NCBI GenBank assembly: GCA_944358875.1 | Contig: CALVRZ010000001.1 | Coordinates: 20,214 to 84,213 of the forward strand | Direction of reading: 5' to 3' | DNA from: an uncultured Bacilli bacterium | GTDB lineage: Bacteria > Bacillota_I > Bacilli_A > RF39 > UBA660 | DNA: 64,000 bases | In this document: positions 1-49,569 of the stretch, in pieces | Layout: every line of letters starts with the position of its first letter | Numbering within the stretch: position 1 is the first letter of the stretch | Program-made: the position numbers and the translations under genes | Notes under the pieces: model-generated | Database searches by the model: none | What the model saw: the letters and a program-made list of their open reading frames with translations, nothing else | Told to the model about the DNA's origin: nothing

Positions 1-824
1 TTGTCCAGTATTTTAATTCTTTATTTGCAGATTTTGATAAAGAGAAAGAAAGTAAAGATATTTTTAGAGAAAATAGTAAAATACTTAAACAGAAAATTGA
101 AAATATTAATAAAGTTGTTTACGATATTTATATTCAGATTGATGATATTAAGCTAACTTATGATTTGTCAGATGAAGAAATTAATAAATTTAGTATTCTT
201 AATCGTAATTTGGAGCAGATTAACGAAGATTATAAAGCTTTAATGGCTCATGGAAGAGGTAAGACTTTTGCTTATTCAAAACTAGTGTCAGAACTTGATG
301 GATTAAGTATTAAATTATCGAGGTTACAAGATGATTTAGATTATCAATTAAGATCAATTACAAGTATGAAAGATGATGAGTATAGAGCTAAGGAACAATT
401 GGCTACGATTCAAAGATTACTCAAAGAGTCAAGAAATAAGCTTAAGGATTATAAGATACCTGTTATTCCTAATAGTTATTATATTGAACTTAGAGAGGCA
501 CAAGAAGCAATTCGGGAAATTATTAAGGAACTTGATAAGAAACCAATTGTTATTAAAATTTTAAATATTCGTGTAGATACAGCGAGAGATTTGGTGTTTA
601 AAATCTTTAATAAAACAAATGATATGGTTAAAAGTGCAATGATTAGTGAAAAACTTATTGTCTATGGTAATAGATATCGTAGTAGTTATCCCGAGATTGA
701 TCAAGGACTTAAACAGGCTACAGAATTATTTTATAAAGGACAATATAAAAATTCTTTTGATACTTCGGTTCAGACATTGCAAAAGGTTGATAGTGATGTG
801 TTAAAAAAAATAGAGACATTATAA
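1..824 (+). CDS. ezrA: Septation ring formation regulator EzrA, C-terminal part; 5' end lies outside the window (frame open from nt 3, no start codon)
   Basis: Open frame from the window edge. Long K/E/L/Q-rich coiled-coil sequence with a C-terminal segment (QATELFYKGQYKNSFDTSVQTLQKVD) of the kind seen in EzrA C-termini. Confidence 0.5.
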   Translation, partial: VQYFNSLFADFDKEKESKDIFRENSKILKQKIENINKVVYDIYIQIDDIKLTYDLSDEEINKFSILNRNLEQINEDYKALMAHGRGKTFAYSKLVSELDGLSIKLSRLQDDLDYQLRSITSMKDDEYRAKEQLATIQRLLKESRNKLKDYKIPVIPNSYYIELREAQEAIREIIKELDKKPIVIKILNIRVDTARDLVFKIFNKTNDMVKSAMISEKLIVYGNRYRSSYPEIDQGLKQATELFYKGQYKNSFDTSVQTLQKVDSDVLKKIETL

Positions 825-887
825 AAAAACATTGCAATTTTAGTTAAAGTATGATAGTATTAATATAGAGTAAAGAGGAGGAAAAAA

Positions 888-1937
888 ATGAGCTTTGTTG
901 AATTTTTGATGGAATATTATATCTATATATTGATCGTTTTAGTTTTAATGATTATTACTATTATTGGCTTTTTAGCTGATAAAAGGGACAAGAAGAAAAA
1001 GAAAAATAAGAAAGATGCTAGTGTAAGTGATAATGTTAGTGTTAATGCTAATACTAATGTAGGTGGAAATGTTTCTCAACCAATGGAGAATATTGCACCA
1101 ACACCATTACAACCGCAAAACTTAGATGTTAATATGAGTAATGCGAATATGAATACGGCAATAAATAGTAATGTTAATCCTAATATGGGAATGAATAGTG
1201 GTATTGCTAGTCAAAATATTCTGGAACAACCTTTAATTAGAGAAGAGGTACCTAATCAAGTAGCTAGCACGACTGATACTAATAGTGATGTTAATAGTTT
1301 AGGGTATAAGCCTTTAGATGAGCAGAAGCCTAAAATTGCTCCTAGACCAGTTGAAATACCTAGTGAGAATGCTATGGGTAATGTTGATAGTAATTTAGGA
1401 AACGTTGGTGTTACACCTAATGTTAATCCTACACCAACACCAGTAGCTCCTAATATGAATCAAACACCTGTGATGGAACAACCAACGATGAGTGTTAACC
1501 CTATACCAACGATTAATCAAACATTTAATTCTGGAGTTGGTACTGGTGTTACACCTTCAGTACAAAATCCACAAACACAGGCTAGCGTTAATACAATGCC
1601 TGCTACTAATCCGGTTCCTGGAGCACCCGTTGTTAATAGTTGGGATGTTAATCCAACACCAAGTGTTAATCCGACAGTGATTACACCAGAGCCAACGATG
1701 GGACAAACAGTAAGTCCTATGCCTAATACGAGTAATACGACTTCAACACCAATGCAACCTAATGTTAATCCAGTTCCTACTAATGTAGGAATCAACGTTA
1801 GTCAACCTGCTAGTCAAGTTACTGCAACACCACAACCTCAACAACAAGCTAGTGGAATGAATTTTGTATATGGTCAGGAAACACCGACAAATGCTAATAA
1901 TCAAGTGAATAATAATCAGGATTTATGGAAATTATAG
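888..1937 (+). CDS. Membrane-anchored low-complexity protein: N-terminal TM helix, Lys-rich linker, then Asn/Pro/Thr/Val/Gln-rich repeats (NVNP, NPTP motifs)
   Basis: Strong RBS (AGGAGG) 7 nt upstream. Hydrophobic segment at aa 10-30. Remainder is compositionally biased and repetitive. Confidence 0.45.
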   Translation: MSFVEFLMEYYIYILIVLVLMIITIIGFLADKRDKKKKKNKKDASVSDNVSVNANTNVGGNVSQPMENIAPTPLQPQNLDVNMSNANMNTAINSNVNPNMGMNSGIASQNILEQPLIREEVPNQVASTTDTNSDVNSLGYKPLDEQKPKIAPRPVEIPSENAMGNVDSNLGNVGVTPNVNPTPTPVAPNMNQTPVMEQPTMSVNPIPTINQTFNSGVGTGVTPSVQNPQTQASVNTMPATNPVPGAPVVNSWDVNPTPSVNPTVITPEPTMGQTVSPMPNTSNTTSTPMQPNVNPVPTNVGINVSQPASQVTATPQPQQQASGMNFVYGQETPTNANNQVNNNQDLWKL

Positions 1938-1984
1938 ATTTAGGTTTTTCCTAAATCTTTTATACCTATTAAGGAGGGATTACG

Positions 1985-2593
1985 ATGAATGACGAAGAAA
2001 TTATGAAACGCTTTAATGCATCTTTAGCGGAAGATAATAAGCAAACGCCAGTTACACCGTATCATGCTACCGGTAATCTTAATACGGCAATTGGTAATCC
2101 TAATATTAATGTTAATGATCCTATGAATGTTAATATTCAAAATGGTGGTTTAAATACTAATAATACTTCTTCAGCAGTACCACCAGTTGATTTGTTAAAA
2201 CCTGAAAGTCAAATTTCTAATGGAATGCCAGTAGGGGAACAACCATCAACTAATTTTAATAATAATTCTAATGTGGTACTTAATCTTAATCAACCATCTG
2301 TTGCGCCAAATATGAATGGTCAAGGAGAACAACAAAGTGCCTCACAGAATACCAATTATCAACCAGATGTGACCGAGCAATATATTCCTAATCAAGAATT
2401 ACAGGGTGACCAAGTATATAAAACGACAACTTATATTTCGACTCAACCATCAATGACGCAAAAGAAAAAGAAGACAGTGAAACTTACACTATCTCCTGAA
2501 ACAAAAATTGCAATGGTAATTGCTTTAATCTTATTTATTTTTATTATGGTAATGCCAACTATTTATGATTTTATTAGAAATATACGTTTTTAG
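1985..2593 (+). CDS. Asn/Pro-rich low-complexity protein with a C-terminal TM helix (tail-anchored topology), compositionally related to the preceding gene
   Basis: RBS AAGGAGGG. N/P/Q-rich body, KKKK stretch, hydrophobic C-terminus IAMVIALILFIFIMVMPTIY. Confidence 0.4.
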   Translation: MNDEEIMKRFNASLAEDNKQTPVTPYHATGNLNTAIGNPNINVNDPMNVNIQNGGLNTNNTSSAVPPVDLLKPESQISNGMPVGEQPSTNFNNNSNVVLNLNQPSVAPNMNGQGEQQSASQNTNYQPDVTEQYIPNQELQGDQVYKTTTYISTQPSMTQKKKKTVKLTLSPETKIAMVIALILFIFIMVMPTIYDFIRNIRF

Positions 2594-2891
2594 GATGAGA
2601 TGATAATTCAATGATTAAATCAAAATTATCATCATCGGCAACAATATTTTTATGAATTTTGTTACATTTGGAACACTTATAAATTATTTTATAAGTGTTT
2701 TTAAATTTTTCTATACCAATTGGAATTAATAATCCTTGACATTGATTAGATCTGTCGCCGGGATTAATATCGACGTGTTTAGAGTACAAACAATAAGGAC
2801 AGTGGTCTCTAGCGGTATATTTTAGCTTTTCAACGTGTTTGTGACAATTTTCACAGATGAATTCTTCATCGATCATATTAAATTTTTTCAT
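2574..2891 (-). CDS. RNHCP domain-containing small Cys-rich (zinc-ribbon-like) protein
   Basis: CENCHKH...RDHCPYC...CSKCNK cysteine pairs with the R-D-H-C-P signature. Convergent with the upstream gene and overlaps it by 20 nt. Confidence 0.5.
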   Translation of the reverse strand: MKKFNMIDEEFICENCHKHVEKLKYTARDHCPYCLYSKHVDINPGDRSNQCQGLLIPIGIEKFKNTYKIIYKCSKCNKIHKNIVADDDNFDLIIELSSHPKNVYF

Positions 2892-3018
2892 TATCTCACC
2901 AAATTCATTATATCATTTATATTTTATATTGTAAATTATAGAAAAGATAATTAATTTTATGATATCAGAACTTGTATTAAATTATTCTATATATTATAAT
3001 TTATATAAGAGGTGGATT

Positions 3019-3714
3019 ATGAATAGAGAATTAAAAATACCAAATCATGTTGCGATTATATTGGATGGTAATGGTCGGTGGGCAACGGAGAGAGGATTAA
3101 AAAGAAGTAAAGGTCATGATGCAGGATTTAAAAACTTGAAAACACTTAGTGACTATATTTTAACTTGTGGGGTTAAAATACTTAGCGTTTTTGCTTTTTC
3201 GACAGAAAATTTTAAGCGAAGTAAAGAAGAAGTAGATTATTTAATGAATTTATTTGTTACAGGTTTCAAAAAAGAAAGAAATTATTTTGTTGAAAGAAAT
3301 ATTAAGGTTATTTTTTCAGGACGAAAAGTTAATTTAAGAAAAGATGTAGTTAAAGCAATGAATGAACTTGAAAAGATTACTAAAGATGGGACAAAGGGTA
3401 TTCTTAATATTTGTTTAAATTATGGAGGACAAAGTGAGATTGTTGATGCTGTTAATAATATTATTTTAGATGGTGTTAAGGAAGTTGATGAAGAAACTTT
3501 TAGTAAATATTTATATCAAGAACTACCTCCGATTGATTTGATGATTAGAACAAGTGGGGAACTTAGAATTAGTAATTTTATGTTATGGCAACTAGCTTAT
3601 GCAGAATTGTATTTTTCTAATACTTATTTTCCTGATTTTGATGAAAAAGAATTTGATAAGGCATTAGTAGAATATACTAAACGAGACCGGCGATTTGGTG
3701 GTATTAAGAAGTAA
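3019..3714 (+). CDS. uppS: Isoprenyl transferase (undecaprenyl-diphosphate synthase)
   Basis: Canonical N-terminus HVAIILDGNGRWA, plus FSTENFKR, SGELRISNFMLWQ and RRFGG motifs. Start chosen at the ATG preceding MNRELKIP (the ORF track's upstream extension has no RBS). Confidence 0.9.
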   Translation: MNRELKIPNHVAIILDGNGRWATERGLKRSKGHDAGFKNLKTLSDYILTCGVKILSVFAFSTENFKRSKEEVDYLMNLFVTGFKKERNYFVERNIKVIFSGRKVNLRKDVVKAMNELEKITKDGTKGILNICLNYGGQSEIVDAVNNIILDGVKEVDEETFSKYLYQELPPIDLMIRTSGELRISNFMLWQLAYAELYFSNTYFPDFDEKEFDKALVEYTKRDRRFGGIKK

Positions 3715-3716
3715 TT

Positions 3717-3752
3717 AGGTTGTTCGTAAAGACAACCTTTTTTTTATTTCAT
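3717..3752 (+). terminator. Rho-independent terminator after uppS (GGTTGT-TCGTAAA-GACAACC + T8)
   Basis: Perfect 7-bp stem followed by a T-run. Confidence 0.6.
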
Positions 3753-3777
3753 ATAATACCTATGAAGGAGGGATTTG

Positions 3778-4662
3778 ATGGTTAAAACTTATAGTTATGC
3801 TAAAGATAAAGATGTTTTTTTGACAACGCATTTTAAAGTAGGAGAATTTCGAAGTTTTAATGATAAAACGGGGAAGCTTACAACTGATAAAATATTAATT
3901 GATGAAAATTTACCAGTAATGCTTGAAAATCTATATAGCCTTTTGGATAATAAATATGGTCTTAAGTCCATCGTTATTAATAGTGGTTATCGAAGTGATG
4001 ATTTTGAAGAATCTCTATCTGGTGGTGTTAGAGGTGGAACACATACGCAAGGAAAAGGTGCAGATATTGTTTGTTATAATAAAAAAGGAAGTGTTATTAA
4101 TAATAAAGAAGTTTGTTGTTTAGCTGAAGATATAGGATTTAAGGGTATAGGTTATGGTGGAACATATAGCCACGTCGATGTTCGAGATACTAAAAGTTTT
4201 TTTGATGAAACGAATGGAAAAACGGGAATTAGTAGCTTTTATAGTTATTTTAATATAGCTAAGGTAGATGATAATAGTGATACTCTTAATTATAAGATTG
4301 GAGATATAGTGTCTATTAATGGGGTATATGTATCAAGCGACGCTACAGAAAAATTAGTTCCAAAGATAAAGAAGGGAAAAATTACGAAGATAAAGTTAGG
4401 AAGTAAGAATCCATATTTGTTAGATGATGGTGCGATTGGTTGGGTAAATGATAGTGTTATTGTTAGTAATATTTACTTAGCTAATTTATCTTATGATGGC
4501 GATTCTATTGTCGATGCACTTTCTTTAATTGGTGTTGATAGTTCATATAACAATCGCAGTAAACTTGCTAAAGCGAACGGTATTACTAATTATAGTGGTA
4601 CAGCAGAACAAAATCTTAAATTACTTAGTTTACTTAAAAAGGGAGAACTTATTAGTATATAG
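3778..4662 (+). CDS. Peptidase M15-family zinc D,D-/L,D-peptidase-like cell-wall hydrolase with a C-terminal SH3b-like / cell-wall-binding-like region
   Basis: H-x(6)-D in HTQGKGADI plus downstream SHVDVRD (hedgehog/DD-peptidase Zn ligands). RBS GAAGGAGGG. The track's first codon is TTG; ATG at 3778 preferred. Confidence 0.55.
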   Translation: MVKTYSYAKDKDVFLTTHFKVGEFRSFNDKTGKLTTDKILIDENLPVMLENLYSLLDNKYGLKSIVINSGYRSDDFEESLSGGVRGGTHTQGKGADIVCYNKKGSVINNKEVCCLAEDIGFKGIGYGGTYSHVDVRDTKSFFDETNGKTGISSFYSYFNIAKVDDNSDTLNYKIGDIVSINGVYVSSDATEKLVPKIKKGKITKIKLGSKNPYLLDDGAIGWVNDSVIVSNIYLANLSYDGDSIVDALSLIGVDSSYNNRSKLAKANGITNYSGTAEQNLKLLSLLKKGELISI

Positions 4663-4690
4663 TTCTTCTTTTTTTATTGATGTTTAAAAT

Positions 4691-4744
4691 AATGACTTCT
4701 TTTGCTGTGAACTTAGTGACTTTTAATGAGAAATTTGATACAAT
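4691..4744 (+). repeat. 54-bp direct repeat, copy 1 (promoter-like, ends in extended -10 TGATACAAT), upstream of the DUF1016 gene
   Basis: AATGACTTCTTTTGCTGTGAACTTAGTGACTTTTAATGAGAAATTTGATACAAT. Repeated at 5809-5862 with 3 mismatches. Confidence 0.8.
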
Positions 4745-4769
4745 TTAGATTAAAGATTGGAGGTTATTT

Positions 4770-5810
4770 ATGGATAAGAATTTAATATATAATGATAATG
4801 AAATAAATCATATATTTGATAATATCAAAGAATTAGTTATTAATAGTAGGAATAAAGTTTATTCTACTATTAATACTGAGATGCTTAATTTATATTGGAA
4901 TATAGGTAAAGCTATCATGGAGATACAACAAGGTGATGAAAGAGCTAGTTATGGTGAAACGGTACTTGAAAAGTTATCTAAAAAATTAACTGATGAATTT
5001 GGAAAAGGATTTTCTATAATAAATTTAAGAAGAATGAGAAAATTTTATTGTTTATTTCCAATTCGTTCAACAGTGTTGAACGAATTAAGTTGGTCTCATT
5101 ATCTTGAAATAATAAAAATAGAAGAAGAACCTAAAAGAAATTTCTATATAAAAGAAACTATTAATTCGAGATGGAGTGTTCGAGAACTCCAAAGACAAAT
5201 TGGTTCACTATTATATGAAAGACTAACATTATCTACTAATAAGGATAAAATATTAGAACTAGCTTTAAAGGGACATGAATTAAAAAATGGTAAAGATTTA
5301 GTGAAAGATCCTTTTGTTTTAGAATTTTTGGATATTAAGGAAAATACTGATTATTTAGAATCTGATTTAGAAAAAAATATTCTAGAACATTTAAAAGATT
5401 TTTTATTAGAGTTGGGAAAAGGTTTTATGTTTGTTGGTTCTCAGGTAAGATTAACATTAGAAGAAGATCATTTTTATCCGGATTTAGTTTTCTATAATAG
5501 ACTTTTAAAATGTTTTGTAATAATAGATTTAAAAATTGGAAAAGTATCTCATCAGGATATTGGACAAATGCAAATGTATGTTAATTATTATGATAGAGAA
5601 ATAAAAAATGATGACGAAAATCCTACAGTTGGTATTTTATTATCGACATTAAAAAATAAAACGGTTGTTAAATATACATTACCTGAGGATAATAAGAATA
5701 TCTTTTCTTCAAGTTATAAGTTGCATCTTCCTACAGAACAAGAATTAATTGAGGCGGTTGAAGAAGAAAAAAAGAATTTACAATTAAATGAGGAACAAAA
5801 GGTAAAATAA
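4770..5810 (+). CDS. PDDEXK nuclease-domain protein, YhcG/DUF1016 family
   Basis: N-terminal DUF1016 signature (LYWNIGKAI, LSWSHYLEI) and C-terminal PD-(D/E)xK-like region (DLVFYNRLLKCFVIIDLKIGK). Confidence 0.6.
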   Translation: MDKNLIYNDNEINHIFDNIKELVINSRNKVYSTINTEMLNLYWNIGKAIMEIQQGDERASYGETVLEKLSKKLTDEFGKGFSIINLRRMRKFYCLFPIRSTVLNELSWSHYLEIIKIEEEPKRNFYIKETINSRWSVRELQRQIGSLLYERLTLSTNKDKILELALKGHELKNGKDLVKDPFVLEFLDIKENTDYLESDLEKNILEHLKDFLLELGKGFMFVGSQVRLTLEEDHFYPDLVFYNRLLKCFVIIDLKIGKVSHQDIGQMQMYVNYYDREIKNDDENPTVGILLSTLKNKTVVKYTLPEDNKNIFSSSYKLHLPTEQELIEAVEEEKKNLQLNEEQKVK

Positions 5811-5862
5811 TGTCTTCTTTTGCTGTGAACTTAGTGACTTTTGATGAGAAATTTGGTACAAT
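5809..5862 (+). repeat. 54-bp direct repeat, copy 2, immediately upstream of eno (likely the eno promoter)
   Basis: 51/54 identical to 4691-4744. -10 TACAAT sits 18 nt before the eno ATG. Confidence 0.8.
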
Positions 5863-5879
5863 ATAATTGGTGATAAAAA

Positions 5880-7106
5880 ATGAAAAAGATAATTGATATT
5901 AAAGGTAGAGAAATTCTTGATTCAAGAGGTAATCCTACCGTTGAAGTAGATGTAATATTAGATGATGGTATTAAAGCTACGGCTTCAGTTCCAAGTGGTG
6001 CTTCGACAGGAGTACATGAAGCTTTAGAGCTTAGAGATGGAGATAAAAATAGATATAATGGGAAAGGTGTTTTAAAAGCTGTTAATCATGTTAATAATGA
6101 AATTAAAACATCTTTACTAGGAATGAATATTGATGATTTAGCAGCAATTGATAAGAAAATGTTAGAATTAGATGGTACGGATAATAAATCTAATTTAGGT
6201 GCTAATGCTATTTTAGGAGTATCATTGGCGTGTCTTAAGGCTGGTGCTTTAGCTAATAATAAGAAATTATTTGAATATGTTGGTGATGGTAAAACTTTAC
6301 CTAAATGTATGATGAATATTTTAAATGGGGGAGCACATGCAGCGAATGGACTTGCTTTTCAGGAATTTATGATTGTACCTCAGTTAGATGATTATTTAGC
6401 TAATTTACAAATGGGTTCTGAAATATTTCATAGTTTACAATCTTTACTTAAAGAGAAAAACTTAAGTTGTGGTGTTGGTGATGAAGGTGGTTTTGCACCG
6501 ATGATTGATACTACTTATCAGGCTTTAGATTTAGTTAAAGAAGCGGTAAATAGATCAGGATATATATTAGGTAGTGATGTTTGTTTAGCAATGGATGTGG
6601 CGGCTTCAGAATTTTATGAAGATGGTTATTATGTTTTTGAAAATAAAAAGTATAATAGTGAAGAGATGGCTAATTATTATCTTGATTTAATTAGTAAATA
6701 TCCTATTATTTCAATTGAAGATGGAATGGCTGAAGATGATTATGATGGCTGGATCTTACTTACGAAATTACTTGGCGATAAGATTTTATTAGTTGGCGAT
6801 GATTTATTTGTTACAAATAAAAAATTATTACAAGTTGGTATAGATAAGCATATGGCTAATGCTATTTTGCTTAAAGTTAATCAGATTGGTAGTGTAACTG
6901 AAACTTTAGAGACAATTAAATTAGCTAAAGATAATGGCTATAAAACAATTATTTCACATCGAAGCGGCGAAACAGAAGACAATTATATTGCTGATTTAGC
7001 GGTGGGACTTGATCTTGGGGTGATTAAAACAGGTTCAATGTCAAGAAGTGATCGCTTAGCTAAATATAATCAATTGATTAGAATAAATGAAGTAGTTAAT
7101 AAGTAG
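5880..7106 (+). CDS. eno: Enolase (phosphopyruvate hydratase)
   Basis: MKKIIDIKGREILDSRGNPTVEVDV, SGASTG, and the catalytic motif around IEDG. Confidence 0.95.
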   Translation: MKKIIDIKGREILDSRGNPTVEVDVILDDGIKATASVPSGASTGVHEALELRDGDKNRYNGKGVLKAVNHVNNEIKTSLLGMNIDDLAAIDKKMLELDGTDNKSNLGANAILGVSLACLKAGALANNKKLFEYVGDGKTLPKCMMNILNGGAHAANGLAFQEFMIVPQLDDYLANLQMGSEIFHSLQSLLKEKNLSCGVGDEGGFAPMIDTTYQALDLVKEAVNRSGYILGSDVCLAMDVAASEFYEDGYYVFENKKYNSEEMANYYLDLISKYPIISIEDGMAEDDYDGWILLTKLLGDKILLVGDDLFVTNKKLLQVGIDKHMANAILLKVNQIGSVTETLETIKLAKDNGYKTIISHRSGETEDNYIADLAVGLDLGVIKTGSMSRSDRLAKYNQLIRINEVVNK

Positions 7107-7113
7107 GTGTTGT

Positions 7114-7611
7114 ATGAAAAAGATAATTGTGGTATTTGGTTTTGTATTAATTTTTTTGGTAGGATGTAGTAGTGATGTAAAGGTTGCGGTCGATAATACA
7201 GTTGAGGAAGAAAAAAATGATTATGTGACATATAAGAATAATTTACAGAGTGTTTCTGAATTTACATCAGAAGATGAAATTCCTTGTGACATTACTACTT
7301 CAATAGATAGAGTTAATGAAGAAGAAGTTAGTTACCGAGCTATTTTTGATAATCCTAAAGTTGATATGTACGATATTAAGGCTTTGATTATTCACGATTA
7401 TTTTACGGAAGATATTTTTCCTTCGATTGGTATTTTTGATGAAACAGAAGATTTAATTATTGGTGATGAAGAAGTTAAGGGAATTCAATTAGTAGGTTAT
7501 ATAAAAACTAAAGAAGAAATTGAAAATTTAAATTTAGAACTTAGAATTTGGATTGAATATAAAGATGTAACGGGAGAAACTAAGACAATATATTATAAAC
7601 CGACAAAATAA
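7114..7611 (+). CDS. Lipoprotein of unknown function
   Basis: Signal peptide with lipobox LVGC-SS. Confidence 0.5.
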   Translation: MKKIIVVFGFVLIFLVGCSSDVKVAVDNTVEEEKNDYVTYKNNLQSVSEFTSEDEIPCDITTSIDRVNEEEVSYRAIFDNPKVDMYDIKALIIHDYFTEDIFPSIGIFDETEDLIIGDEEVKGIQLVGYIKTKEEIENLNLELRIWIEYKDVTGETKTIYYKPTK

Positions 7612-7649
7612 TACTTTAGTTTTTGATATATTGTTTTGGGTGATAAAAA

Positions 7650-7814
7650 ATGAAAGTTAAAGTTTTTGATGAATCACATGAGAAAGATTTAGAAAATAGC
7701 ATTAATGAATTTATTGTTGAAAAGGAAATTATTGATATTAAATTTTCGGTTTCAACCTCGATATTTAGTGATGAACAAATTTATTGTTTTTCGGCTTTAA
7801 TTATGTATAAGTAG
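7650..7814 (+). CDS. Cse60/YteV-like small protein (54 aa); below the ORF-track length cutoff
   Basis: MKVKVFDESHEKDLENSINEFI...IDIKFSVS...EQIYCFSALIMYK matches the pattern VKxFDxxHEKDLExxxNxF...QIYCFSA that I recall for Cse60 (a sigma-E-controlled sporulation protein in Bacillus). Confidence 0.4.
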   Translation: MKVKVFDESHEKDLENSINEFIVEKEIIDIKFSVSTSIFSDEQIYCFSALIMYK

Positions 7815-7825
7815 GATGGTGGATT

Positions 7826-9565
7826 ATGAAAGAAAAAAGAGGGTTTACTTTAATTGAATTGCTAGCTGTTATATTAATTTTAGGTATTATAATGTCAATT
7901 AGTACTTATTTTATGTTTAATAGTAATAAGGATGCTGAAAATGAAGTTAATTATATTAATGAAAACGGTATTTTAAATTCTGCTTCTTTTTATACAACTG
8001 AATATAATAAAAATTTAATTTGGAATGAAGATGAGAATGCGGCTTGTATTTCAATAAATACACTTATCAATAGGGGGTATTTTGAACGAGATGATATTGT
8101 AGCTAGTGGATATGATAAATATAGTGTTAAAGTTACAGAAGTTGGCGATAAAGTATATAATTATGAATTAGTTAATGATATTTATTGTTATTTTAAAGAT
8201 TTTATTGATCCTACGATATCAATAGATGGTGATAATCCATTAATTAAAAATTATGGCGAAAGTTTTGACTTATGGAGCGATGTTACAGTTGATGGTACTG
8301 GTAGTGATGTTATTTCAAAATATATTTTAAATGGCGATAAGAGAATTAATAACACCAATGAACTTCAAGTTGGTGAATATGTTATTAATTATTATGTAAT
8401 GGATACTTTTGAAAATGAAGCAAAAATGGAAAGACAAGTACATATTATTGATAATGTTTCTCCTACGATTGATTTTGAGACACCAATAGTTAAAGCTTTA
8501 GGTGAAGATTTTGATTTGTGGAGTGATGTTACTGTCAAAGATTTAGAAAGTGGTATTGATAATAATTCAAAAAAAGTAATTAATAAGGATAACAATCAAG
8601 TAATTACTAATACTAAGGATTTAGAAATTGGTACATATAATTTTACTTATTCAGTAAGTGATAAAGTGGGGAATGAGGTTACTAAAGATAGACAGATTCA
8701 AATAATACTTTCTGATAAGAAGTTTGAGTATAAAGGATATGAAGAAGAATTTGTTGTTCCGGCGACAGGATATTATTTTGTGGATGCAAATGGGGCTGGT
8801 ACTAATATAGGCGGTGGCTTAGGTGGTAATGTTACTGGTTATATTTATTTACAACAAGGCGAAGTTTTAAAAATAAAAGTTGGAGGTACGAATGGTTATA
8901 ATGGTGGTGCTAAATCATCAAAGAGTGATGGAATGACAGGTGGTGGTGCAACAACGTTAACTAAAAATGGCAAAACTTTAATTACAGCAGCGGGAGCTGG
9001 TGGACCTACATATTCTTGTAAAACACCTTTATATAAAGTAGATAAACCAAATACTTTTAAATTTCCTGATGACAGTTATTGTTTTCCTTTCGATAAAGAT
9101 GCTAATCTAAATGGTGGTTTAGGTGATGGTTATGGTCCTGGAGGAAATGGTACAAATGGTGGTGGTGGCGCTGGTATTGCTGGTGATTTTGAGACATCTT
9201 GTTTGGGAGCTAATCCGCAATGCGAAGAATATGAACAAAAAATTTGTATTCAATGGGAAGAGGTTTGTGTTGATATACCTGCTTATTGTGTACAGTGGAG
9301 TCCTTTGGGTTACTGTAAAAGATATACTAAGCCTCAGCATATTTGTTACGAGGGCGGTGATTGTGTTAAATGGAATATTATAGAGAGCGTTCGTAATTGT
9401 CAATTTGAATATTATATGTGTACAGCATCAGCAGTTGGTGAACCAGGTAGAGGTGGCAAAAGTAGTGTTTCTAGTGAGGTTATTAATGTTAACTATATTC
9501 ATGGTGAATCAGAAAATTATTATAATGGTGATTTGACAATTAAATATGTAGGTGAGAGTCTATGA
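7826..9565 (+). CDS. Prepilin-type N-terminal cleavage/methylation-domain protein (type IV pilin-like) with two Ig-like repeats (DUF5011-like, DFDLWSDVTV motif) and a Gly-rich then Cys-rich C-terminal region
   Basis: KRGFTLIELLAVILILGIIMSI class-III prepilin motif. Two ~70-aa repeats. GGGLGGN...GGNGTNGGGGAGIAG followed by 12 Cys in ~110 aa. Confidence 0.6.
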   Translation: MKEKRGFTLIELLAVILILGIIMSISTYFMFNSNKDAENEVNYINENGILNSASFYTTEYNKNLIWNEDENAACISINTLINRGYFERDDIVASGYDKYSVKVTEVGDKVYNYELVNDIYCYFKDFIDPTISIDGDNPLIKNYGESFDLWSDVTVDGTGSDVISKYILNGDKRINNTNELQVGEYVINYYVMDTFENEAKMERQVHIIDNVSPTIDFETPIVKALGEDFDLWSDVTVKDLESGIDNNSKKVINKDNNQVITNTKDLEIGTYNFTYSVSDKVGNEVTKDRQIQIILSDKKFEYKGYEEEFVVPATGYYFVDANGAGTNIGGGLGGNVTGYIYLQQGEVLKIKVGGTNGYNGGAKSSKSDGMTGGGATTLTKNGKTLITAAGAGGPTYSCKTPLYKVDKPNTFKFPDDSYCFPFDKDANLNGGLGDGYGPGGNGTNGGGGAGIAGDFETSCLGANPQCEEYEQKICIQWEEVCVDIPAYCVQWSPLGYCKRYTKPQHICYEGGDCVKWNIIESVRNCQFEYYMCTASAVGEPGRGGKSSVSSEVINVNYIHGESENYYNGDLTIKYVGESL

Positions 9566-10218
9566 AAAGAAAAATAGCATATGTTATATTATTTATTTTA
9601 ATTATAATGGTAATCAGTATTATTTGTTTTGTTATGTTTTATCCTAAAGAAAAATTAGAAAATAATAAAACTGTTACTTCTTCAGAAATGATTCAGTATT
9701 TAGAAAGCAGTATGTATATGTATGGTGATTATTTAATTAATGATACTAATTATTTAGATCAATTTAATGTATCTAGGGAATATCATGTATATTTAGAAGA
9801 AATGTTAAATAGTGATAAATTTGATCAACAACCTTTAGAATTTTTAGAATGTGATTATAGTAATACTTATTTAAATATTATTATTAATTTGGAGAATGAT
9901 GATATATCATTAGATGCTATTACTGATTGTTTAGTTAATCAAGACCAATATGGAGTGTTTTATAATAGGCAAAAATTAGAAGATAAATTATTAGAATATG
10001 GTAAGGATATAGCTTCTTATTATGATACAACAGATATGGATGATAGTGCCACTATTGAAATTAATTTAGAACAATTACGGGATGTTTATAATCGTGATAT
10101 TTCAATGTTTATGGAAAATTATGACCTGAAAGAAACTAAAGTTTTGATTTCTTTTAACGAAGATACTAGTGGTTATAGTAATGATTATAAATGTGTTTTA
10201 ACTAAGAAAAATGATTGA
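9562..10218 (+). CDS. Membrane protein (single N-terminal TM) translationally coupled (ATGA overlap) to the pilin-like gene
   Basis: Hydrophobic N-terminus IAYVILFILIIMVISIICFVMF. The stop codon lies inside the 62-bp direct repeat. Confidence 0.45.
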   Translation: MKRKIAYVILFILIIMVISIICFVMFYPKEKLENNKTVTSSEMIQYLESSMYMYGDYLINDTNYLDQFNVSREYHVYLEEMLNSDKFDQQPLEFLECDYSNTYLNIIINLENDDISLDAITDCLVNQDQYGVFYNRQKLEDKLLEYGKDIASYYDTTDMDDSATIEINLEQLRDVYNRDISMFMENYDLKETKVLISFNEDTSGYSNDYKCVLTKKND

Positions 10219-10244
10219 CAATATACTTAATTTTATTATATAAT
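10183..10244. repeat. 62-bp perfect direct repeat, left copy, flanking the IS (target-site duplication)
   Basis: GATTATAAATGTGTTTTAACTAAGAAAAATGATTGACAATATACTTAATTTTATTATATAAT is identical at 12251-12312. It contains TTGACA-N18-TATAAT. Confidence 0.85.
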
Positions 10245-12250
10245 CTCAAATTTGACAGTTGTATAAAGTTAAAAACTCACAAACCCTTTATTTATAAGGG
10301 AATGCGAGTTTTTTTGAATTTAGAAAAATGGCGTACATAATTCTTATTTATTTCATATCTAAAATTTCTTTAATTTTTTTGTAAGTTATTATCTCAGTAT
10401 CAGTATTTATGCCTAAAAAATCATGTAAAGCATCTGTTAAATCATCTCTTGTTTGTATTGGTTCAAATCCTTTTCCATTGTGCTCTAATAATTTCATTTC
10501 TTGTAATTTTGATATTATTTCATTTACAGTATATTTATCATCCAATTGATGTTCTAGATATCTATAGATAAATAATGCTAAGAAGCAAGTAATAAAATGT
10601 CCTTTTATTCTATCTTCGCGTGATAAATGAACTGTCCCAGAATCAAAGTCATCTTTCATAATTCTAAATGATTCTTCAATTTCCCATCTACCATTCATAA
10701 CTTTTATAATTGTTGCAGTATCATCAATTAAATTAGTTGTTATTCCGTATAAACCATTATATTTTTCTTCATTTTTATAAATTTCTTCATCTATGATATA
10801 TTCTATATTACAGGCGATTTCTCCAGCATCGGTTGTTTTAATTTCTTTAATAAATCTTTTAGGATCATTAGGATTTTTACTTATTTTTATTTTTTCAACA
10901 TCTTTTTTCTTTGCTATTTTTTTATTTTTCTTATTAGTTTCTTCAACTAGTTTTCTGGCACGCTCTAATTGATGTAATTTTAAATTGTACTGGTAGACTT
11001 GATATTTAAAAGAAAAAGTTACTATTAAAGTTTGCATTACTGATGCTGTTTCACATTCAATTTCTTTATAAAATATGGTGTTAAAATATTTCTTTTTTAA
11101 TTGTTCGTCTTTTTCAATTTCATCAAGATTATAAACATTCATAAGGTTTCCTAAGATTCGCCATCCTTTTCTATCTAAAGCAAATTCTTGTAATTTATTA
11201 TTTAATTTTTTTATAGATTGAGTAATTACAAAACCACGACCATCTTTGACATTAAATTTTTTAATTTCATCGGTACACATGGCTGCATCAGTACATACAA
11301 TTATGTTACTACCAGCCATGTTATAATTTTTTAAAAACTCTTCCTCAGTAGGAATCATGGTCTTAGTTTCAGAAGTATTTCCAGGATTAATATTCATAGC
11401 AAAAGGATAGCCATCAGCATCCATAAATAATCCCATTTGTACAAGTGGATTAGGTTGATGTTGTTTACTTATTCCATACCTTTGAAAATCATTTTCTTCA
11501 GTGTAGAAAAAATAGTTTGTACAATCATAATAAATAACCTTGTAATTTCTATCGATGACTTTACTACTATTGTCAAATAGTTCTTTTTGAATAGTATTTA
11601 TTTCATGTGATAAATAGGTTAATGTTCTATAAACATGTTGAAGATCAAAGTCATAATTTCCTATAAATTTTCTTGATTGTTCAAATGTTGAAAGTTTAGA
11701 AGAAGGCCATATGATACGAGCATATAGTAAGCATTCAACAACTGCATTTATATCAAATGTAAATTTATATTTATCTTTAATATTTTTACATATTTTATCA
11801 ATACCTAGATCATAATAAATTTTTCTTAAGAAAAAATGTCCAGAATAGAAGCAACGATTTATATTTTTTTCTATTTGTTTATTAGGATTTAAAGTTAAAT
11901 TAACGGGTAATTCTTTTCCATCTTTTATCATCTGATTTAAAGAGTTGATATACTCTTTGACTTTATCCATAGTATTTTCAGTACCAAATCTTTCTTTTAA
12001 GTTTTGGTCATTACCTAAGTTTTCATAAACATAAGTAGATTTTTTTCCATTAAGTTTTTTATAATCAGCAATTATGGCATAGTTATTATTGCTTTTTGTT
12101 GATACAGTTTTGAGTCTCATAAGTGTGGTACCTCCTTACATTATATTAATATTATATCATGTACGGCTTATGTACGCAAGAGTAAAATTAAAAAAAACTA
12201 GGATTTATAAGGCCTAGAACACAATTTTTTATTACAAGTGTCAAAGATGG
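10245..12250 (-). mobile_element. IS1634-family insertion sequence (~2.0 kb) with imperfect terminal inverted repeats (AAATTTGACAGTTGTATAAA / reverse complement ATCTTTGACACTTGTAATAAA)
   Basis: Single long DDE-type transposase ORF. Inverted termini read by eye (~16/21). Immediately bounded by a 62-bp direct repeat. Long variable target duplications are a known property of IS1634. Confidence 0.65.
10348..12120 (-). CDS. IS1634-family transposase
   Basis: N-terminus MRLKTVSTKSNNNYAIIADYKKLNGKKSTYVYENLG follows the IS1634-family pattern (K-x-NG-x-YYxI-x-SY...LG). ~590 aa with DDE-like acidic residues. Confidence 0.6.
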   Translation of the reverse strand: MRLKTVSTKSNNNYAIIADYKKLNGKKSTYVYENLGNDQNLKERFGTENTMDKVKEYINSLNQMIKDGKELPVNLTLNPNKQIEKNINRCFYSGHFFLRKIYYDLGIDKICKNIKDKYKFTFDINAVVECLLYARIIWPSSKLSTFEQSRKFIGNYDFDLQHVYRTLTYLSHEINTIQKELFDNSSKVIDRNYKVIYYDCTNYFFYTEENDFQRYGISKQHQPNPLVQMGLFMDADGYPFAMNINPGNTSETKTMIPTEEEFLKNYNMAGSNIIVCTDAAMCTDEIKKFNVKDGRGFVITQSIKKLNNKLQEFALDRKGWRILGNLMNVYNLDEIEKDEQLKKKYFNTIFYKEIECETASVMQTLIVTFSFKYQVYQYNLKLHQLERARKLVEETNKKNKKIAKKKDVEKIKISKNPNDPKRFIKEIKTTDAGEIACNIEYIIDEEIYKNEEKYNGLYGITTNLIDDTATIIKVMNGRWEIEESFRIMKDDFDSGTVHLSREDRIKGHFITCFLALFIYRYLEHQLDDKYTVNEIISKLQEMKLLEHNGKGFEPIQTRDDLTDALHDFLGINTDTEIITYKKIKEILDMK

Positions 12251-12312
12251 GATTATAAATGTGTTTTAACTAAGAAAAATGATTGACAATATACTTAATT
12301 TTATTATATAAT
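12251..12312. repeat. 62-bp direct repeat, right copy (target-site duplication)
   Basis: Identical to 10183-10244. Confidence 0.85.
12283..12312 (+). promoter_or_regulatory. Sigma-A-type promoter TTGACA-N18-TATAAT within the right repeat copy, positioned to drive the flp-like gene and feoAB
   Basis: Consensus hexamers. A duplicate sits at 10215-10244 just before the IS. Confidence 0.5.
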
Positions 12313-25990: not shown

Positions 25991-26000
25991 TTTAAAATAA

Positions 26001-26100
26001 AAGGCACCTGACTTTAACATTTGTTGGTCGGGTACTTATCTAAACTTATTTGGAAAGCATCTGATTCACATAATCAAATGTATCCTTTTTTATGAGGCGC
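26001..26100. repeat. Partial copy (hairpin module only) of the repeat that flanks the 511-aa gene
   Basis: AAAAGGCACCTGAC...GTCGGGTAC...GGAAAGCATCTGATTCACATAATCAAATGTATCCTTTTTTATGAGGCG is shared with 26337-26440 and 28498-28612. Confidence 0.75.
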
Positions 26101-26106
26101 TAATTT

Positions 26107-26440
26107 TTTTGTTATAAATTTATAAATTTATTTCATTTCTTGTTAGTTAAAATAGTAGTATTATAAATAATTATTTGATATTATAACTAACTGGATACAT
26201 TTTGAAGATCAGGTGCTTTCCTTTCTAATTTTATGCTAGAAAGGTAGGTGATATTTATGAGCAAAAGAGAATTATATCTTTATATCATAATATTACTTTT
26301 ATTTCTAGTAATATTTTTATTATTAAAATAAAAAAAGGCACCTGACTCAACGTTTGTTGGTCTGGTGCTTACCATACATATTTGGAAAGCATCTGATTCA
26401 CATAATCAAATGTATCCTTTTTTATGAGGCGTTTTCCTCA
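26107..26440. repeat. Long direct repeat, left copy (~335 bp): AT-rich leader, 24-aa hydrophobic-peptide ORF bracketed by inverted repeats (GATCAGGTGCTTTCC / AAGGCACCTGAC), then the hairpin module
   Basis: ~90% identical to 28262-28612 by eye. Confidence 0.75.
26257..26331 (+). CDS. Tiny hydrophobic peptide (24 aa, MSKRELYLYIIILLLFLVIFLLLK) inside the repeat unit; could be a type I toxin-like or leader peptide
   Basis: RBS AAAGGTAGGTG 6 nt upstream. Identical peptide encoded at 28420-28494. Confidence 0.3.
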   Translation: MSKRELYLYIIILLLFLVIFLLLK

Positions 26441-26617
26441 TATCTACATTATAGCATACGGCAGACTATGTCCGCAACCTAACATTTTGATTTTTTTTCA
26501 TAAAAAAATCAAAACCCTCCTATAATGAACATAAATGTAGTATAATACTACTCAAACAAATCGGAGACTACTTGGTATTACCGTTCTCTCCCGTATAATG
26601 AATGGAGTGGTTTTGAT

Positions 26618-28261: not shown

Positions 28262-28612
28262 ACTTATTTTTGCTATAAATTTACTTTAAGTTTATTATAT
28301 ATCTTGTTAGTTAAATTGGTATTATTATAAAAGATTATTTGATATTATAAATAACTGGATGCATTTGAAGATCAGGTGCTTTCCTTTCTAATTTTATGTT
28401 AGAAAGGTAGGTGGTATTTATGAGCAAAAGAGAATTATATCTTTATATCATAATATTACTTTTATTTCTAGTAATATTTTTATTATTAAAATAAAAGGCA
28501 CCTGACTCAACATTTGTTGGTCGGGTGCTTATCCAAACTATTGGAAAGCATCTGATTCACATAATCAAATGTATCCTTTTTTATGAGGCGCTCCTCATAT
28601 CTACATTATAGC
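28262..28612. repeat. Long direct repeat, right copy (~350 bp), including the second copy of the 24-aa peptide ORF
   Basis: Matches 26107-26440 module for module. Confidence 0.75.
28420..28494 (+). CDS. Tiny hydrophobic peptide (24 aa), second identical copy
   Basis: Same RBS and coding sequence as 26257-26331. Confidence 0.3.
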   Translation: MSKRELYLYIIILLLFLVIFLLLK

Positions 28613-28831
28613 ATAAAAAATTTTTTTTTGCTATAAATTTACTTTAGATTTATTTTGTTTCTAGTAATGTTTGTTGGTTGAACACTAAATTAAATGTATT
28701 CTTTTGTTCTTATATGAAATAGTTCTTCATATTAGATATGTTGTATTATAAAGAAATTGTTTTGGTGATACTTTTTGCTATAACTTGATTTTTGTTTTTA
28801 TTTACCTTATAATAGTGGGAGAAAGGAAGAG

Positions 28832-35575: not shown

Positions 35576-35594
35576 TATAATACATTTAAAGCGT

Positions 35595-41643: not shown

Positions 41644-41648
41644 ATAAA

Positions 41649-49510: not shown

Positions 49511-49569
49511 AGTAGAAATTAACTCCAAAATATTTGGAGTTTTAGTATATAATGAGAGGAGATTTTAAT

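What the first reader, a model, noticed from the sequence alone, without database searches (positions are those of the whole stretch)
4691..5880. DUF1016/YhcG nuclease gene inserted upstream of eno with duplication of a 54-bp promoter-containing segment
A 54-bp sequence ending in an extended -10 (TGATACAAT / TGGTACAAT) occurs just upstream of both the DUF1016 gene and eno (51/54 identical). The DUF1016 gene therefore appears to be a cassette that entered at the eno promoter and took a copy of it, or was copied with its own promoter, leaving direct repeats around the cargo. YhcG-like PDDEXK proteins are frequently mobile or defense-associated.
Basis: seen in the sequence. Interest (0 to 1): 0.5.

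Follow-up and report, generated by a model that had tools for sequence, protein, structure and literature searches.

The report
Nuclease gene inserted with duplicated promoter
A horizontally acquired nuclease gene, a candidate phage-defence gene, landed just upstream of the enolase gene in an uncultured gut bacterium and duplicated 63 bases of the enolase promoter, so both genes have a promoter; this is a clear but ordinary example of the known, mechanistically unexplained "insertion with long target duplication".

Summary
The repeat is real: 63 nt, 59/63 identical, at 4685-4747 and 5803-5865, and present only twice in the window. Each copy carries a -35 GTGACT, a 17-nt spacer and TGnTACAAT.

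The unit is native enolase-upstream DNA. Relatives have a homologous sequence once, directly upstream of eno. The sister species (L014, Eno 88% identical) has uppS-M15-eno-orf165 with no nuclease gene and only a 62-nt M15-eno spacer.

The DNA between the copies (4748-5802) is a DUF1016/YhcG ORF with its own ribosome-binding site. It lacks the native upstream region that three of its homologues share, and it lacks its native stop codon: the ORF ends on a TAA inside copy 2. Relatives 83-89% identical in protein sit in unrelated contexts.

The "came with its own promoter" alternative is rejected.

The event fits "insertion with long target duplication", described for restriction-modification and solitary nuclease genes (Nobusato 2000; Furuta 2010).

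Flanking direct repeats of 26-102 nt recur around DUF1016 genes: 8/70 loci against 2/252 control genes.

The same window holds an IS1634-family element with a perfect 62-nt duplication that also copies a promoter.

How the duplication arose is not resolved, and a defence role is unproven.

The parts
3775..4662 (+). Left flanking host gene: M15_3 peptidase with a DUF3597-like C-terminus. uppS-M15 is a conserved gene pair in this clade.
   Evidence: Pfam. The uppS-M15 pair is also present in L014 and in L062-L068.
4636..4674 (+). Likely intrinsic terminator of the M15 gene: a hairpin overlapping its stop codon, ending in a U-rich 3' arm and followed by further T residues. It would insulate the insertion from upstream transcription.
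   Evidence: RNA fold -13.6 kcal/mol, z = -2.9. The sequence is conserved in L014. The terminator role is inferred.
4685..4747 (+). Repeat copy 1: a duplicated copy of the native eno promoter region, now placed upstream of the nuclease gene.
   Evidence: Where outgroups are informative (2 of the 4 differing positions), this copy carries the derived base.
4716..4744 (+). Promoter-like site in copy 1: -35 GTGACT, 17-nt spacer, TG-extended -10 TGATACAAT.
   Evidence: Consensus scan. Function is inferred.
4748..5802 (+). Inserted cargo, 1055 nt: ribosome-binding site (GGAGG, 4759-4763) plus the nuclease ORF. It lacks the native promoter and the native stop codon. No terminal inverted repeats, transposase or integrase.
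   Evidence: Nucleotide homology to homologues in other contexts covers only 4745/4752-5791/5795. No inverted repeats of note.
4770..5810 (+). DUF1016_N + YhcG_C PD-(D/E)xK nuclease gene, 346 aa. Matches PADLOC candidate defence family PDC-S02. E214, D238, D253, K255, Q266 and Y270 are conserved. The last 5 codons and the stop are read from junction and repeat DNA.
   Evidence: Pfam E = 1e-56 and 4e-47. PADLOC E = 6e-138. Invariant columns in 42 and 101 homologues. C-terminal comparison.
5796..5802 (+). 7-nt junction filler CAAAAGG of unknown origin, between the end of homology to other DUF1016 genes and repeat copy 2.
   Evidence: The homology ends are.
5803..5865 (+). Repeat copy 2: the native eno promoter region in its original position. 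Its first 8 nt supply the last codons and the TAA stop of the nuclease ORF.
   Evidence: Homologous to the eno-upstream regions of L014, L016 and L018.
5834..5862 (+). Promoter-like site in copy 2: GTGACT, 17-nt spacer, TGGTACAAT. It is followed by the eno ribosome-binding site GGTGAT (5869-5874).
   Evidence: The -10 box / GGTGAT / ATG arrangement is conserved in relatives.
5880..7106 (+). eno (enolase), the right flanking host gene. No terminator-like structure lies between the nuclease gene and eno, so eno is probably also reached by transcripts starting at copy 1.
   Evidence: Pfam. The fold of 5770-5885 is no better than shuffles, z = +1.3. No terminator was found in the scan. Read-through is inferred.

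Best explanation
After this species split from its sister lineage, a fragment of foreign DNA inserted a few bases downstream of the -10 box of the enolase promoter. The fragment held only the ribosome-binding site and coding sequence of a DUF1016/YhcG PD-(D/E)xK nuclease. It had lost its own promoter and its last codon or codons.

The insertion duplicated 63 bp of target DNA. This fits the class called "insertion with long target duplication".

The result is: M15 terminator, eno promoter copy 1, nuclease gene, eno promoter copy 2, eno. The nuclease is probably transcribed from a copy of a housekeeping promoter. Enolase keeps its own promoter and probably also receives read-through transcripts.

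Shown: the architecture, the origin of the repeat as target DNA, the truncation of the cargo, and the absence of the gene in the sister species.

Inferred:
- The duplication arose in one step, from joining the fragment to target ends offset by 63 nt, either by staggered breaks with fill-in or by replicative template switching. Short similarity between the two promoters' -10 regions may have helped the left junction form.
- Such an insertion survived because it disrupted no gene and brought the cargo under a promoter.
- The protein is an active DNA endonuclease of restriction or defence type.
For: Repeat and promoter features.

Empty site. L014 (Eno 88% identical) has uppS-M15-eno-orf165 with no DUF1016 and a 62-nt spacer. 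The spacer's left end (TAGTTCTTCTTTTTTTAT) and right end (ATATAgTTGGTGATAAAATG) match the window's outer flanks. None of the 39 other eno-bearing loci fetched has DUF1016 within the up to 7 kb of flank held.

The repeat is target DNA. The whole 63-nt unit aligns with the eno-upstream region of L018, and its 3' part aligns with L014 and L016.

The cargo is foreign and truncated.
- Protein relatives 83-89% identical lie in unrelated contexts.
- Nucleotide homology is confined to 4745/4752-5791/5795, almost exactly the interval between the repeats.
- The native upstream region of about 90-120 nt shared by L057, L069 and L077 is missing.
- The C-terminus has 5 extra residues and the stop codon lies in copy 2.

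Age. The copies differ at 4/63 positions. Eno four-fold degenerate sites differ at 60/127 between the window and L014. Within-species diversity is about 0.5-1.3%. All four copy-specific bases recur in every strain.

Generality. After dereplication, 8/70 DUF1016 loci have flanking direct repeats of at least 40 bits, against 2/252 control genes. Fisher p = 1.1e-4, or 4e-4 without the window. Several of these repeats duplicate the end or start of a neighbouring gene.

Literature. Restriction-modification genes and a solitary mcrA gene insert with target duplications of 46 to about 420 bp that often span start or stop sites of the target gene (PMC2853133).

Nuclease motifs are intact.
Against: - Only one comparator lineage shares the M15-eno junction. 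The direction of the event (insertion versus loss) therefore rests on indirect arguments.
- The L014 spacer lacks clear homology to the 5' ~35-40 nt of the unit. The pre-insertion sequence is reconstructed, not observed.
- Promoter activity and read-through are predictions. The promoter scan as a whole finds no more sites than shuffled sequence does (29 against 26.4).
- The enrichment of flanking repeats could simply reflect how recently DUF1016 genes were acquired, because old duplications decay. One control hit is an unknown, non-nuclease gene (L039), so the process may not be specific to nucleases.
- The one PDC-S02 representative tested in E. coli B was not among the four candidate systems that protected against T4, T5 or T7.
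- Within the species, DUF1016 shows 12 synonymous and 11 non-synonymous polymorphic codons, so constraint is moderate at best.
Confidence: 0.75

Rival explanations
1. Campbell-type integration. A small circular DNA already carried the nuclease ORF fused to a copy of the eno promoter from a related strain. It recombined homologously with the chromosomal promoter, leaving one promoter copy on each side.
For: This geometry produces exactly a direct repeat around the cargo. The four fixed differences between the copies could be donor-recipient divergence rather than later mutation. Copy 1 carries the derived bases where outgroups are informative.
Against: It needs an earlier, unexplained fusion of the eno promoter to the nuclease gene, which only moves the problem back a step. 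63 bp is a marginal length for RecA-type recombination (general knowledge, not tested here). Other DUF1016 loci duplicate quite different host sequences of 26-102 nt. The stop codon lying inside the repeat and the 7-nt filler look like illegitimate joints.
Confidence: 0.1
2. The duplication was made by the resident IS1634-family transposase. Either the nuclease segment was once a non-autonomous element of that family, or foreign DNA was captured at a staggered target break made by the transposase.
For: The same window has an IS1634-family element (10245-12250; NCBIfam E = 7.6e-93) with a perfect 62-nt target duplication (10183-10244 and 12251-12312). Empty-site strains were verified. That duplication also contains a promoter and ends at a -10 box. 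IS1634 and IS1549 are known for duplications of 8-514 bp with no mechanistic model (PMC2266710). 62 and 63 nt are strikingly similar lengths.
Against: The cargo has no terminal inverted repeats and no similarity to the element's ends, CTCAAATTTGACAG and GTGTCAAAGATGG. Both cargo ends are truncations of a gene, not element termini. If this family's duplication length varies widely (a possible 548-nt case), then a 62/63 match is not predicted by this model either. Similar duplications flank DUF1016 genes in very different, GC-rich organisms.
Confidence: 0.08
3. The nuclease promotes its own insertion. DUF1016 genes would then be single-gene selfish elements whose product cuts the target with a long stagger, and repair copies the gene in.
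For: Flanking repeats are enriched around DUF1016 genes. Furuta et al. proposed that double-strand breakage by the encoded enzymes underlies long target duplication. The adjacent PDC-S01 gene in L104, which carries a DUF4143 domain, is also repeat-flanked.
Against: The cargo ends are variable: 5' leads of 21-140 nt and 3' tails of -8 to 111 nt. Only the ORF is conserved between contexts. No shared motif is visible at the duplication boundaries. In the window the cargo is truncated at both ends. An unknown, non-nuclease gene shows the same kind of insertion (L039). Most DUF1016 loci (62/70) show no repeat.
Confidence: 0.08
4. The gene and both repeats are ancestral to the two sister species, and L014 lost the gene by recombination between the repeats.
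For: Direct repeats favour deletion, and only one comparator lineage exists.
Against: A deletion between the repeats would leave one full unit, but L014's 62-nt spacer lacks the 5' part of the unit. The copies are 94% identical, while neutral sites between the species differ at about 47%. This would still be an insertion with target duplication, only an older one.
Confidence: 0.05
5. The 63-mer is a dispersed promoter or regulatory repeat of this genome that happens to flank the gene.
For: It contains a good promoter and an internal GTGA(A)CTT direct half-repeat. The whole genome was not available.
Against: There are only two copies in 64 kb and none in the JGI metagenomes. The unit is homologous specifically to eno-upstream DNA of relatives.
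Confidence: 0.03

Closest known systems
Insertion with long target duplication of restriction-modification and solitary nuclease genes (Nobusato et al. 2000, Gene 259:99; Furuta et al. 2010, PMC2853133)
   Same: A restriction-endonuclease-fold gene with no transposase, integrase or terminal inverted repeats, flanked by a direct duplication of target DNA longer than 30 bp. A related genome has an empty site. The duplication lies at a gene boundary, so the neighbouring genes stay intact. A single-gene case (mcrA) is already on record.
   Different: The cargo is a DUF1016/YhcG gene, which is not an established restriction-modification component. The host is an uncultured low-GC gut Bacilli lineage. 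The duplicated segment is a promoter that now drives the truncated, promoterless cargo. The empty site comes from a sister species and has diverged, so the single-copy target is not seen intact.
IS1634 / IS1549 insertion sequences with long, variable target duplications
   Same: A long duplication (62 nt for the element in this window, 63 nt here). In both cases the duplication ends at or just after a -10 box and preserves the downstream gene's promoter.
   Different: The insertion sequence has a transposase and imperfect terminal inverted repeats. The nuclease insertion has neither.
PADLOC candidate defence system PDC-S02 (DUF1016/YhcG single-gene candidates)
   Same: Full-length HMM match, E = 6e-138. 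DUF1016 genes are enriched next to restriction-modification and BREX loci and on mobile elements.
   Different: No neighbouring defence genes here: the gene sits between a cell-wall peptidase gene and eno. Anti-phage activity of the family is not established, and one representative gave no protection.
Promoter capture by horizontally acquired genes
   Same: A promoterless foreign ORF becomes expressible by landing behind a host promoter.
   Different: The host promoter is duplicated rather than shared or stolen, so the essential downstream gene keeps its own copy.

Membership tests
DUF1016/YhcG PD-(D/E)xK nuclease family (Pfam PF17761 + PF06250) | Both Pfam domains above the gathering score, in the N-to-C order | tested here: met
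   DUF1016_N 160 bits (cut-off 32.8) at residues 18-151. YhcG_C 191 bits (cut-off 32.5) at residues 176-325.
DUF1016/YhcG PD-(D/E)xK nuclease family (Pfam PF17761 + PF06250) | Catalytic E ... D ... (D/E)xK core and the QxxxY motif conserved | tested here: met
   E214, D238, D253, K255, Q266 and Y270 are invariant in 42 homologues at 42-89% identity and at least 95% conserved in 101.
DUF1016/YhcG PD-(D/E)xK nuclease family (Pfam PF17761 + PF06250) | Nuclease activity | not testable with these tools
   No homologue with a solved structure by sequence search. No biochemical data were found.
Insertion with long target duplication (Nobusato 2000; Furuta 2010 criteria) | Direct repeat longer than 30 bp immediately flanking the insert | tested here: met
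   63 nt, 59/63 identical, abutting the cargo on both sides.
Insertion with long target duplication (Nobusato 2000; Furuta 2010 criteria) | A related genome has an empty site in which the repeat sequence occurs once | tested here: inconclusive
   L014 has the empty site with one promoter region, and its flanks align. However, the spacer is only 62 nt and aligns to the 3' half of the unit at about 72%. L018 aligns along the whole unit but has a different upstream gene. No same-species empty site was found among 13 loci.
Insertion with long target duplication (Nobusato 2000; Furuta 2010 criteria) | Insert shorter than 20 kb with no transposase, integrase, prophage or tRNA target | tested here: met
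   The 1055-nt cargo holds one ORF. No inverted termini. The nearest tRNA is at 41230.
Insertion with long target duplication (Nobusato 2000; Furuta 2010 criteria) | The repeat is otherwise unique in the genome | tested here: inconclusive
   Unique within 64 kb and absent from the JGI metagenomes. The whole genome was not available.
Insertion with long target duplication (Nobusato 2000; Furuta 2010 criteria) | The insert encodes restriction and/or modification genes | tested here: inconclusive
   The protein has a restriction-endonuclease-like fold family assignment, but nothing shows it acts as a restriction enzyme. There is no methyltransferase gene.
PADLOC PDC-S02 candidate anti-phage system | Full-length match to a PDC-S02 model | tested here: met
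   PDLC04807, E = 5.9e-138, residues 9-342.
PADLOC PDC-S02 candidate anti-phage system | Protection against phage | not testable with these tools
   One representative tested in E. coli B was not among the four systems that protected against T4, T5 or T7 (bioRxiv 10.1101/2024.09.26.614923).
IS1634-family or other transposable element (autonomous or non-autonomous) | Terminal inverted repeats resembling those of a resident element | tested here: not met
   The cargo ends, GATTAAAGATTGG... and ...GAGGAACAAAAGG, show no inverted repeat and no match to the element's ends.
IS1634-family or other transposable element (autonomous or non-autonomous) | Transposase encoded within the element | tested here: not met
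   The only ORF is the nuclease gene. NCBIfam returns no family match at all for it.
Site-specific integration (integron cassette or integrase-mediated island) | A recombinase nearby and an attachment-type repeat or tRNA target | tested here: not met
   No recombinase appears among the genes called from 1 to 10218. The repeat is a promoter region, not a tRNA or an attC-like palindrome.

The most novel reading that the evidence does not exclude
Long target duplications around genes that lack transposon ends would share one enzymatic cause with IS1634-type transposition in these Mollicutes-like gut Bacilli. Examples here are the 63 nt around the nuclease gene, the 53 nt around an unknown gene next to eno in a related species, and the 26-102 nt around other DUF1016 genes. 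A transposase (or the encoded nuclease) would make widely staggered target cuts that capture any available DNA fragment. That would give a general route for gaining single defence genes without transposon ends, and it would explain the 25-year-old puzzle of insertion with long target duplication.
Probability: 0.1. Interest if true: 0.75.

Novelty: new member of a known kind. Interest (0 to 1): 0.35.

Why it matters
This is a clean natural example of how a promoterless foreign gene can become expressed without harming an essential neighbour: the host promoter is duplicated, so both genes have one.

It extends the phenomenon of insertion with long target duplication from classical restriction-modification genes to the DUF1016/YhcG (PDC-S02) family, and to uncultured low-GC gut Bacilli.

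An IS1634-family element with an almost identical duplication length lies 4.3 kb away in the same genome. That gives a concrete, testable lead on a mechanism that has never been explained.

The finding does not reveal a new kind of system.

Tried and rejected
- **Repeat in public metagenomes.** An exact 22-mer of the repeat had no hits in the JGI metagenome contigs, so there is no extra context or empty site from that source.
- **Intermediate lineages.** The M15 peptidase search found only the window's species (98%) and the L014 lineage (80%); the next relatives are at 64% and do not have eno downstream. No intermediate lineage exists in the collection.
- **Phage origin.** IMG/VR holds only relatives at 55% identity or less.
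- **A defined cassette with fixed ends.** Rejected. Homology between DUF1016 loci is essentially limited to the ORF, plus up to about 120 nt upstream in three loci.
- **Terminal inverted repeats or IS1634-like ends on the cargo.** None.
- **A shared motif at the duplication boundaries in nine repeat-flanked loci.** None seen.
- **Duplication lengths at other copies of the IS1634-family element.** Not recoverable. The contigs that cross this multi-copy element pair the flanks inconsistently. Only the window's site (62 nt) is clean, with one possible 548-nt case.
- **cre or CggR-type operator in the repeat.** Considered by eye and not supported.
- **Structure prediction.** It was not pursued, because the Pfam matches and motif conservation already define the fold.
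- **Base composition.** The cargo is only slightly more AT-rich (about 24-26% GC) than its flanks (28-31%), which is not diagnostic.
Full report
**Observation**

The region reads as follows:
- uppS, 2959-3714
- an M15_3-peptidase/DUF3597 gene, 3775-4662
- a DUF1016_N + YhcG_C gene, 4770-5810
- eno, 5880-7106
- orf165, 7114-7611

The repeat finder reports a 63-nt direct repeat at 4685-4747 and 5803-5865, 59/63 identical. Its 29-nt core occurs only twice in the window at up to 3 mismatches, with none expected by chance. A relaxed search finds no third copy.

Each copy contains GTGACT, a 17-nt spacer and TACAAT preceded by TG. Copy 2 starts 8 nt before the end of the nuclease ORF, so the TAA stop at 5808-5810 belongs to the repeat.

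Thirteen same-species loci were fetched from metagenome assemblies, two of them from one scaffold. Every contig long enough to cover the region has both copies, and the four copy-specific bases recur in all of them. The structure is real and fixed in the sampled population.

**Whose DNA is the repeat?**

Forty loci encoding enolase relatives, drawn from one genome per species, were fetched.

The closest is L014, an uncultured Bacilli genome with Eno 88% identical. It has uppS-M15-eno-orf165 in the same order, with no DUF1016 gene and a 62-nt M15-eno spacer. The spacer's left end (TAGTTCTTCTTTTTTTAT, a probable M15 terminator) and its right end (ATATAgTTGGTGATAAAATG) match the outer flanks in the window. 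Its middle aligns with the 3' half of the repeat.

More distant relatives have other genes upstream of eno but still carry a related sequence there. L018 aligns along the whole unit: TAAAAT..CTTCTTTT...ACTTTTT...TAGTATAAT...TGGTGATAgAATG.

The unit is therefore native enolase-upstream DNA that travels with eno. It is not something brought in by the nuclease gene.

**What is the cargo?**

The nuclease protein has thousands of close homologues; the 120 listed are 83-99% identical. The ones examined lie in unrelated neighbourhoods: next to sufCB, next to an RNase HII gene, beside a Schlafen-like gene, and beside a recombinase/TnpV element.

At the DNA level, the window matches these loci only from 4745/4752 to 5791/5795. 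That is almost exactly the interval between the two repeat copies.

L057, L069 and L077 share a further 90-120 nt upstream of the ATG that includes TATAGTATAAT. This appears to be the gene's native promoter region, and the window copy lacks it.

At the 3' end the common C-terminus is ...LELNE* or ...LNEE[FLI]*. The window protein instead continues ...LNEEQKVK*, reading through a 7-nt filler into repeat copy 2.

So the cargo is a gene fragment cut at both ends, holding a ribosome-binding site and an ORF. It has no inverted termini, transposase or integrase.

The protein keeps E214, D238, D253-x-K255 and Q266-xxx-Y270, which are invariant across 42 homologues down to 42% identity. It matches the PADLOC candidate family PDC-S02 at E = 6e-138.

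**Direction and age of the event**

The M15-eno junction exists only in the window's species and in L014. The next M15 relatives (64% identical) have other genes downstream. Parsimony alone therefore cannot tell gain from loss. Four other observations point to gain in the window's lineage:
- The two copies differ at 4/63 positions, whereas eno four-fold degenerate sites differ at 60/127 between the two species.
- The L014 spacer is too short to be the product of recombination between two full units.
- The cargo is truncated.
- The cargo's relatives are scattered across unrelated contexts.

Within the species the nuclease gene is intact in every contig. It has 12 synonymous and 11 non-synonymous polymorphic codons, so constraint on it is moderate.

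**Functional reading (inferred)**

The M15 gene ends in a hairpin with a U-rich 3' arm, followed by further T residues (-13.6 kcal/mol, z = -2.9).

Copy 1 places a promoter 25 nt upstream of the nuclease ATG, with GGAGG at 4759-4763. No terminator-like structure separates the nuclease gene from eno. Copy 2 keeps the native arrangement of -10 box, GGTGAT and ATG that relatives conserve.

The nuclease gene is therefore probably expressed from a copy of a housekeeping promoter, and eno from two promoters in tandem.

**Comparison with what is known**

Furuta et al. 2010 (PMC2853133), following Nobusato et al. 2000, describe "insertion with long target duplication". Restriction-modification genes of all types, and a solitary mcrA gene, are inserted without any mobility gene. 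They are flanked by duplications of 46 to about 420 bp that often span a start or stop site, so the target gene stays intact. The mechanism is unknown; double-strand breakage was proposed. The present case fits this description.

I tested whether the pattern is general for this family. DUF1016 loci came from encoding-contig look-ups and from scans of viral and metagenome contigs. Among them, 8 of 70 dereplicated loci have a direct repeat of at least 40 bits between the 250 nt upstream and the 250 nt downstream of the gene. Only 2 of 252 control genes from the same loci do. Fisher p = 1.1e-4, or 4e-4 with the window left out.

The repeats are 26-102 nt long, all different, and several are clearly target DNA:
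- the last 100 nt of a histidine-kinase gene (L159)
- the start codon region of radC (L104)
- the start of a methylase-like ORF next to an OLD-family nuclease gene (L182)

The cargo limits vary (5' leads of 21-140 nt, 3' tails of -8 to 111 nt), and only the ORF is conserved between contexts. This argues against an element with defined ends.

The two control genes that scored were a PDC-S01 gene (AAA_14 + DUF4143) next to the DUF1016 gene in L104, and an unknown 446-aa gene in L039. The L039 gene sits directly after eno, with a perfect 53-nt duplication covering eno's last codons, its terminator and the next promoter.

The enrichment may partly reflect how recently such genes were acquired.

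**An unexpected neighbour**

The window also holds a 2006-bp IS1634-family element at 10245-12250. Its transposase is at 10348-12120 on the minus strand (NCBIfam E = 7.6e-93), and it has imperfect terminal inverted repeats.

It is flanked by a perfect 62-nt duplication (10183-10244 and 12251-12312). That duplication spans the stop codon of orf218 and a TTGACA / 18 nt / TATAAT promoter. Strains L002-L005 and L008-L010 have one copy and no element, which is a verified empty site.

IS1634 and IS1549 are the known insertion sequences that make long, variable duplications (8-514 bp), and no mechanism has been proposed for this (PMC2266710).

The near-identical lengths (62 and 63 nt), and the fact that both duplications end at or just after a -10 box, suggest a common cause. 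Against this, the nuclease cargo has no transposon ends, and this element's duplication length may itself vary. I keep it as a minority rival.

**Junction detail**

The -10 region of copy 1 is AAATTTGATACAAT. It resembles the native DUF1016 promoter of L122 (AAATTTGATATAAT) as well as copy 2 (AAATTTGGTACAAT). The left joint may therefore have formed within a short stretch of promoter similarity. This is only suggestive, because such sequences are generic.

**Verdict**

- This is a new member of a known kind of event. Two modest additions are that the pattern recurs across the DUF1016 family, and that an IS1634-type long duplication is present in the same genome.
- A defence function is plausible but unproven. 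One PDC-S02 representative was not among the candidates that protected E. coli B against T4, T5 or T7.

Noticed in passing
window 10183-12312: A 2006-bp IS1634-family insertion sequence (10245-12250; transposase 10348-12120 on the minus strand) is flanked by a perfect 62-nt direct duplication (10183-10244 and 12251-12312). The duplication covers the stop codon of orf218 and a consensus TTGACA / 18 nt / TATAAT promoter. The insertion is polymorphic: strains L002-L005 and L008-L010 have one copy of the 62-mer and no element.
   Followed up: yes
L190-L199 (junctions of the same IS1634-family element at other sites): In every contig that reaches past the element on that side (10 contigs, 8 distinct flanks), the flank at one end begins ATTATA or ATTTTA, which is TATAAT or TAAAAT on the other strand. 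The flank at the other end always finishes with C. Either the element is 7 nt longer than drawn, which would make the duplication 55 nt, or it prefers to insert next to -10-like boxes.
   Followed up: partly
L193 3377-3924 and L198 593-1140: The 548 nt to the right of the element in L193 equal the 548 nt to the left of the element in L198 (99.8% identical). This could be a very long target duplication or two element copies flanking one segment. The contigs that cross this multi-copy element may be chimeric.
   Followed up: no
window about 26100-26460 and 28270-28640: A direct repeat of about 350 nt flanks an unknown 511-aa ORF (26618-28153) downstream of ftsZ. Identity is 86-98% over most of the unit and lower in one stretch. 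Each copy carries a promoter-like site, a ribosome-binding site, a 24-aa hydrophobic ORF (MSKRELYLYIIILLLFLVIFLLLK) and a conserved element of about 95 nt. That element occurs three times (about 26000-26099, 26335-26431 and 28495-28590). This could be a type I toxin-like module or another long duplication.
   Followed up: partly
L039 3527-3579 and 4937-4989: In a related uncultured Bacilli genome, an unknown 446-aa gene (no Pfam or PADLOC match) sits directly after eno. It is flanked by a perfect 53-nt duplication containing eno's last four codons, its terminator hairpin and the next promoter. As in the window, the inserted ORF takes its stop codon from the repeat.
   Followed up: partly
L104 897-3468: A PDC-S01 gene (AAA_14 + DUF4143; 897-2066) flanked by a 105-nt direct repeat (84% identical) lies next to a DUF1016 gene. 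That DUF1016 gene is flanked by a perfect 26-nt repeat that duplicates the start of radC. These are two adjacent single-gene defence candidates, each with its own flanking duplication.
   Followed up: partly
window 7612-7825: A 54-aa ORF of the Spore_Cse60 family is called between orf165 and the pilin-like gene in several strains (L002, L003, L005, L008-L010). It is not called in contigs identical to the window (L001, L004, L006). The cause was not checked.
   Followed up: no
window 35585-35763; 41230-41725; 49426-49511: A T-box leader (93.5 bits, just above the gathering score) and four tRNA genes (Arg-CCG, Pro-UGG, Ala-UGC, Leu-CAA). These are ordinary features, unrelated to the finding.
   Followed up: no
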